This document shows, piece after piece, positions 59,901-64,000 of a stretch of 64,000 bases of DNA. Under the pieces are notes generated by a model. That model made no database searches, was not told the DNA's origin, and saw nothing but the letters and a program-made list of their open reading frames with translations. This stretch comes from Spizellomyces punctatus DAOM BR117 (taxonomy: Eukaryota): assembly GCA_000182565.2 (NCBI GenBank), contig KQ257465.1, one strand, 5' to 3'. The position numbers and the translations under genes are program-made. Numbering within the stretch: the first letter of the stretch is position 1; every line of letters begins with the position of its first letter.

Positions 59901-60795
59901 AGGTTTGTCCATTCTTCACTACATTCGATCATCTCGATGGCTCTAACGCGTGAATATATGTCAGATTTGGAAACTATCTTCAACCGATATGTGTGAGATC
60001 GCTCGCAACAGTTGCTTGCAAAGTGGATGGGAAATGCAGATTAAGAAGCATTGGTTGGGTGAAAGATGTAACCTGCATGGTCCGGCGGGCAATGGTATGG
60101 CTATTAGACTAGAGATTGTGATCCATTTGCAAACCCCACTGATAATACTATCCCGGGCAGCTATTCACAAGACGAATGTGCCCAATATCCGTCTGGCCTA
60201 TCGGTACCAAACCCTCATGGAAGAGCGGTATATGGTCCTTGGATCAAAGTGGCGAGCTCAAGGCATTATTGAAGACTCTGCACCCAGCACCGAGATGCAG
60301 GATACAGCAATCGTCGCGGAAGACCAGCACAAGGTTGCAGTTAGCAGTCACCTTCTTCCTGGGGACTTTAGAGAACTGCAAGCCAGTGCTCTGCTCGCGG
60401 AACAAGAGGACATCATGGCTGCTGACGGTAGTTACATTGGAGGGATCGATGAAGACGACAAACCACCATCCCGCAATGACCCTTCCCCAGGCGGGCGCAG
60501 AAAGACAATTCCGTCAGTCGTGTCAAAAGCTGCACCTATTTCGATTGCCCCAGAACCTCTTCTCCGCATGAATTCTCCTACCTCGACGCCGAAAGAGTAC
60601 TTTAACAGCCCGACGATGACGGGAGGCGTTTTCAAGGATGATGTGAATGCGCCTTTTCTTGCGTTGGACGCTCCTGCGCTGCCCGTCATCCCGATAGGCG
60701 ACACTGGTTTGATTCCAGGAGCGCATCTCGTAGCGGAAAAGAAACAATTGAAGAAATCGCTCGACGCTTCTGACACTATCCAAGACAAGTTTTGA
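56958..60795 (+). CDS. AMD1: AMP deaminase
   Basis: [81 protein letters not shown] and [11 protein letters not shown]. Confidence 0.97.
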
Positions 60796-60981
60796 ACAAT
60801 ATATCTGTATTTTTTTGCACAAGTTTTTGAAGTTTGGATTATTTATATTATGAAACACGTGATTTAATACTTTGGTAATGATCCAGTGGCGGTGTCCCGT
60901 TTCCGTTTCCGTTTCCGATGCAGTTTGCCGTGCAGCTCATGACTTAACAATCAACGACGAAATTACTTTGTACAGCAAATC

Positions 60982-62912
60982 ATGATAGTGTGGCCTCTTC
61001 TTAATTTGAACTTTGCCTGTGAAAAGTGCCAGACTGGTCACCGCAATGGCAGCTGTGCGCACACTGACCGAAAGCTCTTGGAAATACGTTCGAAAGGACG
61101 ACCCACTTCTCAGTGCTCTCACTGTCGAGCACGACGAAAAGAAGGCGTGGGTCACTCGCATCATCGATGTATGTGTGGAGATGGGTCTACCATACTGAGA
61201 AAGAAGGTGCAAGGTCAGCACAACTCTGCTTTACATGCTACATGAGAAGTATATGCAGTATACTGATTCGAAACACAGTTCATTTTGATCCCAATGTCAT
61301 TCTTGTGTTCACTCCGGAGCGAAGTAATGTAGATGCTTTGCGAAAGCAGCTCGAAGACACACCAAAGAGCACGTTGCTGATAAGAAGAAAGGCAAAGGGT
61401 GGTAAAGGAACTGGCGGTGAGGGTTCAGAAGCGGACGCTCTTGAGATAAGTTATACCCATGTAGACGTCATTGAAGAGTCGGTGAATTTGGATTTGAAGA
61501 AGATGATGGGTATGTTAGCATTAATTGCCTTTCGGTGGATGAGGTTAACATGATTCAAATGTGTTTGACTTGCAGAGAATCCGTGTACCTGCCAATTTGG
61601 TGGTACTTGCATTTGTTCAGAACTTCCGCCATCAAAGTCATGCGGCAGCGTAAAAGCAAAGAAATTCACCGCATCAAACTCTGCACAGCGTCCTGGCCTG
61701 GCATCATCCGCCCTTCTTGCCAACATTGCTGCGTATCCACGACCTATCGAGATCGGTCCTCCCCCAACATCATCACCCTTTCCGTACGCAGCTGGAATTG
61801 CCATTCCAGCTCTTCCACCGATGATGGGACATCAGCCCATCCTTCCAATGCCTCATCCTGGACAATTGGGGCCACTAGTACCTCCTATAGGAGGTGCCTC
61901 AACAGCCGTCATGAACCAACGTGTACCCACCCTCCTACCCAGCGGACTTTCCATGCCAACAAATCCATCATTTGCTGGCGCAATGAAATCTAACCAGCAA
62001 TTTACGGATACAGGAGGACACGATCCTGAGCTTCTTTCCGCGTTATTCGCCCTGCAACAGGGCGGTGCTGTCGGTCAAGGAATGCCGCTACAACCGATAT
62101 CTGGAAACAGTATCAATTCTCCAATGCTGGAGACCCAAAGCTCATCCAGCTGTTGTACTGGGAGGCGCAATACTCAAGACATATGGGCTTCCGCTCCCAA
62201 AAGCTGTTGTGGCGGGATTTCAGAATCAAAACCTGTCAGAGGTGGATGCTGTGGCAGCGTGGCACCACCACCGCGGAATGCTACTCGCTGTGGATGTCAG
62301 GGTAATAGTGTCCCGTCAGGAGGATGCTGCGGTGGAGGGTCACCGATCCCAGTGCAAAACGGCTGCTGCGGCACTTCAAGTGGAAAATCGGCAAGCGGAT
62401 GTTGTGGAAGTAGGACAGCGGAGCCGGTGTCGAATGTAGGCACCTGTGGTGGGTCATCATTGGCTCCAAGCAGAGGCAGCTCTTGCTGTGGTACATCAAG
62501 CAGTTGTGGATGCTCGGGGGGTGGTTGTGGATGCTCAGGTGGAGGATGTGGGAGTACATCCGGGAGCCCTTACGAGTCGAGAAGCGATCTGGATGCCAAG
62601 GACCCAGCGGAACCACATTCACCAACTTGCGAATGTGGATGCCATCAAGACAGAAAGGACTGCGAAGACTGTGCCGCAGATCTATGCTCCGTCCACCTGA
62701 TGCGAATATTGAGCAACGGGAGCGTTGGGGGCGACATGCACGACGCTGCGTCCCAAAGTGCCGCTCCAGGAGCTCAACCGTCGTGTTGTGGGGGGAATGA
62801 TGCATTTGATATGTCTGAAATGCGAAATGCCTTGTGTGGTTGCGGGTGTGGTGGAGCAAAGTCTGGATCTGGGTTTGAAACCGAAGGGCAATTGTGTAGA
62901 TGTGGCACTTGA
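60982..62912 (+). CDS. Copper-fist (Ace1/Mac1/Cup2-type) transcription factor with Cys-rich C-terminus
   Basis: FACEKCQTGHRNGSCAHTDRKLLEIRSKGRPTSQCSHCR...HHRCMCG, NPCTCQFGGTCIC, and a CC/CxC-rich tail. Confidence 0.9.
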
Positions 62913-63578
62913 TAAATACTGTGACGAGTTGACGAGCATGATTTGATGAATTTGTAGAATATGATTTTTGCAAGCTGCTTTCCTAATATCAATGTACAAT
63001 GAACAAAAGCAAACGACACAAGAGAAATGTGTATCTCCTTTGGGTAATGTTGATAAACGACATTTTTCTGATTCGAGTTCACCAATGACCATAGAAAGAG
63101 ATTCAACAATGATATTGGCCGTCTTTTTGACTCGAAGGGACACTGATAAAGTAACAGCGCTACAAAAATCCCACTCGACCTTCGATAGAGCCTTTAAACA
63201 TATGCAAAAAAGTTTCCAACAAACTCATCCCCCATGCGTTGCGTCTCTTGGACATAAGTTCACCAACCATTATCCTTCTTTTTGACTACAGAGCGAGCCC
63301 GACCGGATAAAGAATAGATGGTTGCACGTAAACCTATCAAGTGCAAGAGCTGCAATGGAGGTTAATGGGTCAACGTCCTAATCTAAATCGAAGGGCAATT
63401 TCCGTTTTATACCAAAAGTCGTCGTGGCGCGGTTATACACGTGATAGAGTATTACGTAAGTACCATCGGGGGGTCAGCGACGATGGGGGAAATCCATTTT
63501 GTGTGCGGATGGAGCGAAAACTCATAACGAACAGCTGGTTCCGCACGCCGTCGACGGCCGTACGCTCAAAAGCCCGCA

Positions 63579-64000
63579 ATGTCAACTTCTTCGACAGCTG
63601 CCAAAAAATCTCCCACTACCACCCCAGTAAAGAAAGCGTCCTCGTTCCAGTCGCTCAAAACCCCTTCCTCGTCCGACTTGAACGCTGATAAGAGTGCTGC
63701 GCTGGGGACGCCTTCCCCAAAAGGGTCCATGAGCAACCTAAAAGGCGTTTCGTCCAAAGTTGGGAGCTTGGAAAATATCAATCATACCCCCAAAGGCGGA
63801 CAAAAAAAGATATTCAACGAAAAGAAAACATATAATGTCACTAGCAAAATTGGGTCGCTTGAGGTAGATTGACGTGAAAAAACAAGATTGGGAGACGGGT
63901 TCTTTGTCATGTCTCCCCCTTTTACAAGCTAAAATATGTTGCTACGGCTTAGAATATCAACCATGTCCCCGCTGGCGGCAACGTAAAGATTACTTCCACT
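63579..64000 (+). CDS. Tau/MAP2/MAP4-type microtubule-binding repeat protein (5' part; runs off the window)
   Basis: Basic S/T-P-rich N-terminus, then LKGVSSKVGSLENINHTPKGGQKKI and VTSKIGSLE|NINHVPAGGNVKITST across intron 63864-63952. Confidence 0.85.

What the first reader, a model, noticed from the sequence alone, without database searches (positions are those of the whole stretch)
63579..64000. Tau/MAP2-like microtubule-binding repeats in a fungus
Seen: two repeats 30 aa apart, VSSKVGSLENINHTPKGG and VTSKIGSLENINHVPAGG. The second is only visible after removing intron 63864-63952. They follow a basic region rich in SP/TP sites. Established: tau repeats read VKSKIGSTENLKHQPGGG and VQSKIGSLDNITHVPGGG with 31-32-aa spacing, KxGS is the MARK/PAR-1 site, and the family is mostly studied in animals. 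Inference: a compact tau-like MAP lacking the acidic projection domain and with PGGG changed to PKGG/PAGG. It suggests a pre-animal origin of the repeat, possibly tied to flagellar or rhizoid microtubules. The gene is truncated by the window edge.
Basis: partly seen in the sequence, partly recalled or inferred. Interest (0 to 1): 0.72.

Follow-up and report, generated by a model that had tools for sequence, protein, structure and literature searches.

The report
Small tau-like microtubule protein in chytrid
A soil chytrid fungus carries and expresses a very small gene whose repeats closely match the microtubule-binding repeats of animal tau and MAP2; databases already annotate it, but nobody appears to have studied it.

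Summary
Window 63579-63863 and 63953-64000, with the 89-nt GT..AG intron 63864-63952 removed, encode the first 111 of 172 residues of an annotated protein. That protein is SPPG_07449 of Spizellomyces punctatus DAOM BR117 (100% identity). It scores 135.7 bits on Pfam PF00418 against a cut-off of 27, in four stretches. It is 45% identical to a mammalian tau over 146 residues, including the basic S/T/P-rich flank. RNA reads and RNA contigs show the predicted splice.

The protein has pI 10.2, no acidic projection domain, and KxGS motifs spaced 30, 32 and 32 residues apart. Named homologues occur in 15 fungal species: 5 chytrids, 5 Glomeromycotina and 5 Mucorales. Ten of these belong to lineages that, from recall, have no flagella, so a flagellum-specific role is not supported.

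A pre-animal origin is plausible but unproven. The tree is unresolved, and fungal monophyly is not rejected (AU p = 0.176).

Public annotation already carries PF00418. One 2016 paper mentions a Rhizopus homologue. My searches found no functional study. I rate it a new member of a known kind, of moderate interest.

The parts
63521..63578 (+). Likely 5' untranslated leader of the transcript
   Evidence: In RNA run X7, depth with first mate on + rises from 0.2 (bin 63481-63520) to 6.1 (bin 63521-63560). Bins 63401-63480 are empty on both strands. No ATG lies between about 63493 and 63579 (read).
63579..63863 (+). Exon 1 coding sequence, codons 1-95 of SPPG_07449
   Evidence: Open frame. 100% identity to P0001. 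PF00418 56.7 bits on this exon alone.
63579..63746 (+). N-terminal basic Ser/Thr/Pro-rich flank (residues 1-56), in the position of tau's proline-rich region P2
   Evidence: Residues 1-55 have 8 K+R against 2 D+E, 26 S+T+P, pI 10.2 and SP/TP at residues 11, 15, 28, 44 and 46. HMMER and BLASTP extend the alignment with tau back to residue 11-14.
63747..63800 (+). Repeat 1 core, VSSKVGSLENINHTPKGG (residues 57-74)
   Evidence: Its nearest repeats are fungal (Racocetra, Batrachochytrium, Geranomyces; 21 of 30 identical).
63837..63863 (+). Repeat 2 core, first half, VTSKIGSLE (residues 87-95)
63864..63952 (+). Intron of 89 nt, GT..AG, lying inside repeat 2
   Evidence: A joint skipping 89 bases was seen in X7 raw RNA reads (2 reads, 2 starts) and in one RNA contig each of X1 and X2. 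P0001 reads across it. Intron bins still carry depth 4.6-5.75 in X7, so some RNA is unspliced.
63953..64000 (+). Start of exon 2 (residues 96-111), second half of repeat 2, NINHVPAGG then NVKITST; the gene continues beyond the window
   Evidence: P0001 residues 96-172 continue with repeat 3 and a truncated fourth repeat. The X2 contig runs 25 letters past the window; read by eye, they give the next residues of P0001.

Best explanation
This is the 5' two-thirds of SPPG_07449, a 172-residue member of the Tau/MAP2/MAP4 family in the chytrid Spizellomyces punctatus. The gene is expressed and spliced. The protein is basic (pI 10.2) and probably disordered. It has a Ser/Thr/Pro-rich N-terminal flank, three full repeats and a truncated fourth repeat, each of 30-32 residues with a KxGS...N.NH.PxGG core. 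It has no projection domain. Inferred mechanism, by homology with tau: the repeats lie end to end along the outer ridge of one microtubule protofilament, each bridging tubulin interfaces, and so promote or tune microtubule assembly. Phosphorylation of the KxGS serines by a MARK/PAR-1/Kin1-type kinase, and of the SP/TP sites by proline-directed kinases, would release it. Shown here: gene structure, splicing, expression and family membership by sequence. Inferred: microtubule binding, regulation by phosphorylation, and which microtubule arrays it serves.
For: PF00418 scores 135.7 bits against a cut-off of 27, in 4 stretches. phmmer against PDB chains gave 49 distinct sequences, all named tau (or tau filament or fibril). 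The best is 7pqc_O at E 2.4e-43, aligned over query residues 11-150. BLASTP against a mammalian tau (P0223) gives 45% identity over 146 aa, E 2e-32. That is about the same as against the nearest chytrid homologue, P0121 (47% over 166 aa). KxGS motifs lie at residues 60, 90, 122 and 154; there are 28 K+R against 10 D+E. The stretch after repeat 3 (KVKIHSEKLAFKEKAAPK) aligns with tau's NKKIETHKLTFRENAKAK, the start of the C-terminal pseudorepeat. That pseudorepeat strongly enhances microtubule binding according to Niewidok 2016 (abstract and passages). The Atlas model has pLDDT 0.56 and pTM 0.11, as expected for a disordered protein. On expression, X7 reads lie with first mate on +, like the upstream + strand gene whose reads end in poly(A). 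The intergenic bins are empty, so this is not DNA background. The spliced joint was seen in three RNA runs. Homologues carry the names of 15 fungal species. A review passage states that one tau repeat spans three tubulin monomers along a protofilament.
Against: No binding experiment exists, and none can be run here. None of the three full repeats has the canonical PGGG. The sequences that align with tau's VQIINK and VQIVYK are KKIFNE and VKITST, so tau-like amyloid behaviour should not be assumed. RNA coverage is low: depth 2-7 over exon 1, with about 6 in 100 of run X7 read. Only 2 clean junction reads were found in X7, and the intron is covered at a depth similar to exon 1. The KxGS kinase in this organism was not looked for, because no genome is held.
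Confidence: 0.85

Rival explanations
1. The fungal genes are not inherited from the opisthokont ancestor. They entered Fungi by ancient horizontal transfer from an animal, or moved the other way, and then spread vertically.
For: Chytrid-to-mammal identity (45%) is about as high as chytrid-to-chytrid identity (47%). In the tree the fungal rows do not form one clade. A starred branch (95/90) joins Lingula with two chytrids. No row named as a unicellular holozoan or other protist appeared among the listed hits.
Against: Homologues carry the names of 15 species across three deep fungal groups. The AU test does not reject fungal monophyly (p = 0.176). The nearest neighbours of the Spizellomyces repeats are mostly fungal, and the PKGG form accounts for 26 of 75 fungal repeats against 7 of 111 animal repeats. 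The intron lies inside a repeat; from recall, vertebrate tau exons end after PGGG. The lists show only the best 120 rows each, so absence of protists from them is weak evidence.
Confidence: 0.15
2. It is a MAP specific to the zoospore or flagellum (axoneme or kinetosome rootlet).
For: Chytrids have flagellated zoospores, and 5 chytrid species carry the gene.
Against: 10 of the 15 named fungal species are Glomeromycotina or Mucorales (lineages checked for 4 of the 10). That these lack flagella is recalled. No stage-resolved expression data were examined.
Confidence: 0.1
3. The repeats are kept for another job, such as actin or membrane binding or scaffolding a condensate, and microtubule binding is minor or lost.
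For: PGGG is altered in all three full repeats. The protein is very short and lacks a projection domain.
Against: The KxGS, N, H and P.GG positions are invariant or nearly so across 9 fungal proteins. Altered PxGG forms also occur in animal family members (31 of 111 repeats). The flank and the start of the pseudorepeat are conserved with tau.
Confidence: 0.07
4. It is an artefact: animal DNA contaminating the assembly, or a wrong gene model.
For: None beyond the unusually high similarity to animal tau.
Against: The gene lies on the same continuous sequence as a copper-fist transcription-factor gene and an AMP deaminase gene. The protein's longest contig is 579,104 bases. RNA of a run with the same species label covers it, and the spliced form appears in two environmental RNA contigs. 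Five chytrid species have homologues.
Confidence: 0.01

Closest known systems
Vertebrate tau (MAPT) microtubule-binding region, e.g. PDB 7pqc/6cvn chains and P0223 (Microtus tau)
   Same: Tandem repeats of 30-32 residues with a KxGS...N..H.PxGG core. A basic S/T/P-rich flank precedes them and a truncated pseudorepeat follows. Identity is 45% over 146 aa; the best PDB match has E 2.4e-43.
   Different: Only 172 aa, with no acidic N-terminal projection domain and no long C-terminal tail. PKGG/PAGG replace PGGG. There is no cysteine. Nothing like VQIINK or VQIVYK is present; within the sample these were found only in the mammalian tau. The intron lies inside a repeat rather than after PGGG (the vertebrate exon structure is recalled).
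Chytrid homologues, nearest P0121 (Rhizophlyctis rosea HK097_001659, 239 aa); also Geranomyces, Cladochytrium, Batrachochytrium
   Same: Small basic proteins (115-266 aa as stored; some are partial models) with an S/T-rich N-terminus and 2-6 repeats. Identity to P0121 is 47% over 166 aa.
   Different: Repeat number and PxGG variants differ. Rhizophlyctis rosea has two distinct entries from two assemblies. None has been characterised, as far as my searches show.
Glomeromycotina and Mucorales tau-like proteins (e.g. Gigaspora margarita 'microtubule-associated protein tau-like isoform X1', P0138) and the Rhizopus delemar protein of Sundermann et al. 2016
   Same: PF00418 repeats. The HTPKGG form of Spizellomyces repeat 1 is the dominant form in Glomeromycotina (23 of 30 repeats).
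   Different: They are longer (382-660 aa) with 4-9 repeats and long non-repeat tails. From recall, they come from non-flagellated, hyphal fungi.
Invertebrate tau/MAP2-like proteins (mollusc, chelicerate, echinoderm, brachiopod rows)
   Same: The repeats and the 'KI.S.KL.FKEKA.P+I' tail after the last repeat are shared, for example in Bulinus, Biomphalaria and Tachypleus. The highest identity in the tree alignment was 61% over 75 columns, to Biomphalaria.
   Different: Most carry long N-terminal regions (up to 1,847 aa).

Membership tests
Tau/MAP2/MAP4 family (Pfam PF00418 tubulin-binding repeat) | Match to the PF00418 profile above Pfam's gathering score | tested here: met
   135.7 bits against 27, E 4.4e-40, 4 stretches on P0001. 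Exon 1 alone scores 56.7 bits.
Tau/MAP2/MAP4 family (Pfam PF00418 tubulin-binding repeat) | Three or more tandem repeats with a period of about 31-32 residues | tested here: met
   KxGS at residues 60, 90, 122 and 154, giving spacings of 30, 32 and 32.
Tau/MAP2/MAP4 family (Pfam PF00418 tubulin-binding repeat) | Conserved core with KxGS and a PGGG end | tested here: inconclusive
   KxGS or RxGS is present in 4 of 4 repeats. PGGG is present in 0 of 3 full repeats (PKGG, PAGG, PAGG). However, 31 of 111 sampled animal repeats and 42 of 75 fungal repeats also depart from PGGG.
Tau/MAP2/MAP4 family (Pfam PF00418 tubulin-binding repeat) | Basic proline/serine/threonine-rich flank directly upstream of the repeats | tested here: met
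   Composition. The alignment with tau's flank runs from residue 11-14 onward.
Tau/MAP2/MAP4 family (Pfam PF00418 tubulin-binding repeat) | C-terminal pseudorepeat after the last full repeat | tested here: inconclusive
   Residues 136-154 align with the start of tau's pseudorepeat, and a truncated KIGSL repeat follows. The 18-aa motif of Niewidok 2016 was not scored with its own profile.
Tau/MAP2/MAP4 family (Pfam PF00418 tubulin-binding repeat) | N-terminal projection domain (acidic in tau; variable across the family, so not strictly defining) | tested here: not met
   Only 56 residues precede repeat 1, and residues 1-55 have 2 D+E.
Tau/MAP2/MAP4 family (Pfam PF00418 tubulin-binding repeat) | Binds the microtubule lattice and promotes assembly | not testable with these tools
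   This needs co-sedimentation or imaging experiments. No complex prediction was run, because filament partners are a poor case for that tool.
Tau/MAP2/MAP4 family (Pfam PF00418 tubulin-binding repeat) | Regulation by MARK/PAR-1 phosphorylation of the KxGS serine | not tested
   The motif is present. The kinase was not searched for because no genome is held. The MARK/KxGS link is recalled.

The most novel reading that the evidence does not exclude
The tau/MAP2/MAP4 microtubule-binding module predates animals. The last common ancestor of fungi and animals had a small basic 'proto-tau': flank, three or four repeats and a pseudorepeat, with no projection domain. Zoosporic and coenocytic early-diverging fungi kept it, and Dikarya lost it. 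SPPG_07449, in a transformable chytrid, would then be a near-minimal living example. It could be used to test the ancestral cellular job of tau outside neurons.
Probability: 0.6. Interest if true: 0.6.

Novelty: new member of a known kind. Interest (0 to 1): 0.42.

Why it matters
Tau and MAP2 are studied almost entirely as neuronal proteins of animals. This protein is 172 residues long and 45% identical to mammalian tau across the whole binding region. It is expressed in Spizellomyces punctatus, a unicellular fungus that can be transformed with Agrobacterium (passages). It therefore offers a stripped-down natural version of the module: flank, repeats and pseudorepeat, with no projection domain and no amyloid-core hexapeptides.

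Three questions become directly testable. What does the module do in a non-neuronal cell? Is KxGS regulation ancient? Which tau features are animal additions?

The value is limited. The family assignment is already in public annotation, and a fungal homologue has been mentioned in print.

Tried and rejected
- **No genome.** No whole genome is held for this window. The downstream gene sequence, the MARK/Kin1 kinase and the tubulin genes could not be examined. The rest of the protein comes from the stored protein P0001.
- I asked listing of cluster members to name 10 ambiguous unnamed representatives, to look for protist or Dikarya members. Distribution outside animals and the 15 named fungi therefore remains open.
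- **Tree uninformative.** The tree of the last two repeats plus tail (35 named rows, 76 columns) is a polytomy with 16 of 32 inner branches open. It says nothing about the origin of the fungal genes.
- **Atlas structure search uninformative.** TM-scores were at most 0.26 on a model with pLDDT 0.56, which means little for a disordered protein.
- **No structure or complex job.** I ran none, because the protein is disordered and its partner is a filament.
- **Neighbouring sequence.** Rfam gave nothing for 62900-63600. Pfam gave nothing for the Cys-rich ORF 61569-62909.
- **Earlier findings of this scan.** Nothing by sequence, words or place.
- **Papers not held.** Kellogg 2018 and Dehmelt & Halpain 2005. 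Residue-level tubulin contacts and the statement that the family is 'animal only' are therefore recalled, not checked.
- **Supplementary files** of Sundermann 2016 were not opened. They may list further fungal homologues.

Full report
**What is in the sequence.**
- On the + strand an open frame starts at ATG 63579 and runs to 63863. It reads MSTSS...NLKGVSSKVGSLENINHTPKGGQKKIFNEKKTYNVTSKIGSLE.
- GT follows at 63864 and AG ends at 63952.
- From 63953 the same frame continues NINHVPAGGNVKITST to the window end.

**Is it more than chance?**

**Identity of the gene.**
- A search for longer relatives returned a 172-aa protein, P0001, that is 100% identical to exon 1. NCBI names it 'uncharacterized protein SPPG_07449 [Spizellomyces punctatus DAOM BR117]' and UniRef names it 'Microtubule-asso...'. 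PF00418 is precomputed for it, and its longest contig is 579,104 bases.
- Its sequence reads ...KIGSLENINHVPAGGNVKITSTKLDFGSKVSPRVGSLDNVNHVPAGGKVKIHSEKLAFKEKAAPKIGSLPKSNSRKSLNGSDS.
- The window holds 111 of the 172 codons.
- S. punctatus is a chytrid of the order Spizellomycetales.
- No whole genome is held for the window, so the remainder of the protein rests on P0001.

**Expression and splicing.** Four runs were laid on 62801-64000.
- X7 is raw RNA-seq from a run with the same species label as the best DNA holder; about 6 in 100 of the run was read. Exon 1 has depth 2.1-6.85 with first mate on +, and the last bin reaches 23.
- The upstream + strand gene shows the same orientation, and its reads end in poly(A) at about 62986 and 63008. 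The tau-like transcript is therefore on the + strand.
- Bins 63401-63480 are empty on both strands, so the signal is not DNA background. Depth begins in bin 63521-63560.
- A joint skipping 89 bases with GT..AG ends, equivalent to intron 63864-63952, is seen in 2 X7 reads (2 starts). It is also seen in one RNA contig each of X1 and X2, which are root-metagenome RNA libraries.
- Twelve further X7 reads have loose ends before 63951. The last letters of their consensus fit the end of exon 1, but agreement is only 0.55, so this is weak support.
- The intron bins still carry depth 4.6-5.75 in X7, so part of the RNA is unspliced. Read through, the intron gives a stop after two more codons (ORF 63528..63872).
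- X1 carries G>A at 63764. Read by eye, this is the third base of the Gly codon of KVGS and so is synonymous.
- X2 runs 25 letters beyond the window. Read by eye, these give the next residues of P0001.

**Family membership.**
- The full protein scores 135.7 bits on PF00418 in four stretches.
- phmmer against all PDB chains gave 49 distinct sequences with E up to 0.001, every one named tau (or tau filament or fibril). The best is 7pqc_O at E 2.4e-43. The alignment covers query residues 11-150, so it includes the flank before the repeats.
- BLASTP against a mammalian tau (P0223) gives 45% identity over 146 residues, E 2e-32. Against the nearest chytrid homologue, P0121 of Rhizophlyctis rosea, it gives 47% over 166 residues.
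- The protein has pI 10.2, 28 K+R against 10 D+E, no cysteine, and KxGS/RxGS at residues 60, 90, 122 and 154. SP/TP sites lie at residues 11, 15, 28, 44, 46, 70 and 120.
- The segment after repeat 3 aligns with the start of tau's C-terminal pseudorepeat. In tau that region reduces the dissociation rate from microtubules more than sixfold (Niewidok 2016, abstract and passages).
- The ESM Atlas holds the sequence with pLDDT 0.56 and pTM 0.11, consistent with disorder.

**Differences from tau.**
- There is no projection domain: only 56 residues precede repeat 1.
- The three full repeats end in PKGG, PAGG and PAGG.
- These variants are not unique to this protein. In my sample, 33 of 75 fungal repeats and 80 of 111 animal repeats are PGGG. 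PKGG accounts for 26 of 75 fungal repeats (23 of 30 in Glomeromycotina) and 7 of 111 animal repeats. PAGG accounts for 5 of 75 and 2 of 111.
- The positions aligned with tau's VQIINK and VQIVYK read KKIFNE and VKITST. A VQI[IV][NY]K match was found only in the mammalian tau of the sample.

**Distribution.** Named fungal rows were as follows.
- 3 of 120 listed rows (Spizellomyces, Cetraspora, Mycotypha).
- 6 of 18 rows (Spizellomyces, Rhizophlyctis rosea twice, Geranomyces variabilis, Cladochytrium tenue, Batrachochytrium dendrobatidis).
-, using a profile of 9 proteins (8 with fungal names and the unnamed P0132): 12 of 120 listed rows. Four were query members. The new ones were Gigaspora margarita, Racocetra fulgida, Rhizophagus clarus, Funneliformis geosporum, Helicostylum pulchrum, Syncephalastrum racemosum, Benjaminiella poitrasii and Pilobolus umbonatus.
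- Together this makes 15 species: 5 chytrids, 5 Glomeromycotina and 5 Mucorales. Lineages were checked for 8 of the 15; the rest are placed from recall.
- All other named rows were animals. No listed row carried a Dikarya or protist name. Each list shows only the best rows (120 of 3,363), so this absence is weak evidence.
- An exhaustive profile search of 1.84 billion cluster representatives found 1,710 with E up to 0.001, 887 up to 1e-10 and 371 up to 1e-30. That library carries no names. By BLAST against my named set, 14 of the 148 unnamed proteins screened matched a fungal row best.

**Origin.**
- The nearest neighbours of the Spizellomyces repeats are mostly fungal: 8, 6 and 3 of the top 8 for repeats 1, 2 and 3. 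Over all chytrid repeats, the best outside match was fungal for 10 of 20, animal for 7 and unnamed for 3.
- A maximum-likelihood tree of the last two repeats plus tail (35 named rows, 76 columns) is largely a polytomy. Only Glomeromycotina form a group (80/94). Neither the fungi nor the chytrids are monophyletic in it, and one starred branch joins Lingula with Geranomyces and Batrachochytrium.
- An AU test does not reject a tree that holds the 16 fungal rows together (log-likelihood 16.7 lower, p = 0.176). This does not demonstrate a clade.
- Presence in three deep fungal groups favours an origin before the fungus-animal split, with loss in Dikarya. Ancient transfer remains possible.

**The flagellar idea.** Ten of the 15 fungal species belong to Glomeromycotina or Mucorales, which lack flagella (recalled). 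A role tied only to the flagellum is therefore unlikely. A shared role on long cytoplasmic microtubule arrays of coenocytic cells is my inference and is untested.

**What is in print.**
- Sundermann et al. 2016 state that the 'fungus Rhizopus delemar' has a tau-like binding domain of distinct architecture (passage only; figures and supplements not seen).
- Several full-text searches found nothing relevant. 'SPPG_07449' gave 0 papers. tau + MAP2 + chytrid gave 0. Spizellomyces + 'microtubule-associated protein' + tau gave 1, a dynein paper seen only in the listing. PF00418 gave 5, of which 4 were listed and none was on fungi.
- Two 2025 papers on chytrid microtubules and cellularization contain neither 'tau' nor 'microtubule-associated' as whole words. 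A 2026 MAP review lists tau/MAP2 repeats only for MAP2, MAP4, tau and JPT1/2 (passages).
- The library lacks most subscription journals, so this is not proof of absence.
- S. punctatus is described as genetically tractable by Agrobacterium transformation.

**Verdict.** The family assignment is right and already sits in public annotation. The evolutionary inference is reasonable but unproven, and the flagellar link is unlikely. This is a new, uncharacterised member of a known family, of moderate interest as a minimal, experimentally accessible tau relative outside animals.

Noticed in passing
window 60943-62912 (+): The gene directly upstream encodes a copper-fist DNA-binding domain (PF00649, 53.4 bits, on 60943-61245). 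A long ORF (61569-62912) follows that is very rich in Cys-Cys-Gly and Cys-Gly-Cys runs and has no Pfam match. It looks like a Mac1/Cuf1-type copper-sensing transcription factor with an unusually long cysteine tail. In RNA run X7 it is far more strongly covered (depth 135-176) than the tau-like gene, with poly(A) ends at about 62986 and 63008.
   Followed up: partly
window 63041-63400 (-): RNA reads of the opposite orientation (first mate on -) cover the intergenic stretch between the two genes, peaking at depth 15.8 in bin 63321-63360. Only short ORFs of 31-41 aa lie there on the minus strand, and Rfam gives no match. It may be an unannotated minus-strand transcript, possibly divergent from the tau-like gene's promoter.
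   Followed up: partly
window 63864-63952: The intron of the tau-like gene is covered at depth 4.6-5.75 in X7, similar to exon 1, while the intergenic DNA is empty. A good share of the RNA therefore keeps the intron. That form would stop two codons into the intron and encode about 97 residues with one complete repeat.
   Followed up: no
window 63764 and 64000: Environmental RNA contigs from root-metagenome libraries carry the spliced transcript. They show one or two differences that are synonymous when read by eye: G>A at 63764 in X1, and a different letter at 64000 in X2. A near-identical strain therefore appears to express the gene in those samples.
   Followed up: no
window 59947-60795 (+): This is the C-terminal part of an AMP deaminase gene (PF19326, 74.1 bits).
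   Followed up: no
P0009 and P0035 (unnamed metaclust proteins, 633 and 552 aa): P0009 shares an identical 16-residue run (EKKTYNVTSKIGSLEN) with the Spizellomyces protein, and both unnamed proteins have a PAGG repeat. Yet their best named match overall is an insect tau at about 31% identity. This is probably convergence within a tightly constrained motif.
   Followed up: no
P0122 (Rhizophlyctis rosea, 266 aa): A second Rhizophlyctis rosea entry, from another assembly, has six repeats in two blocks separated by about 70 non-repeat residues. It sits on a very long branch in the tree (1.67). It may be a divergent paralogue or a different strain's gene model.
   Followed up: no
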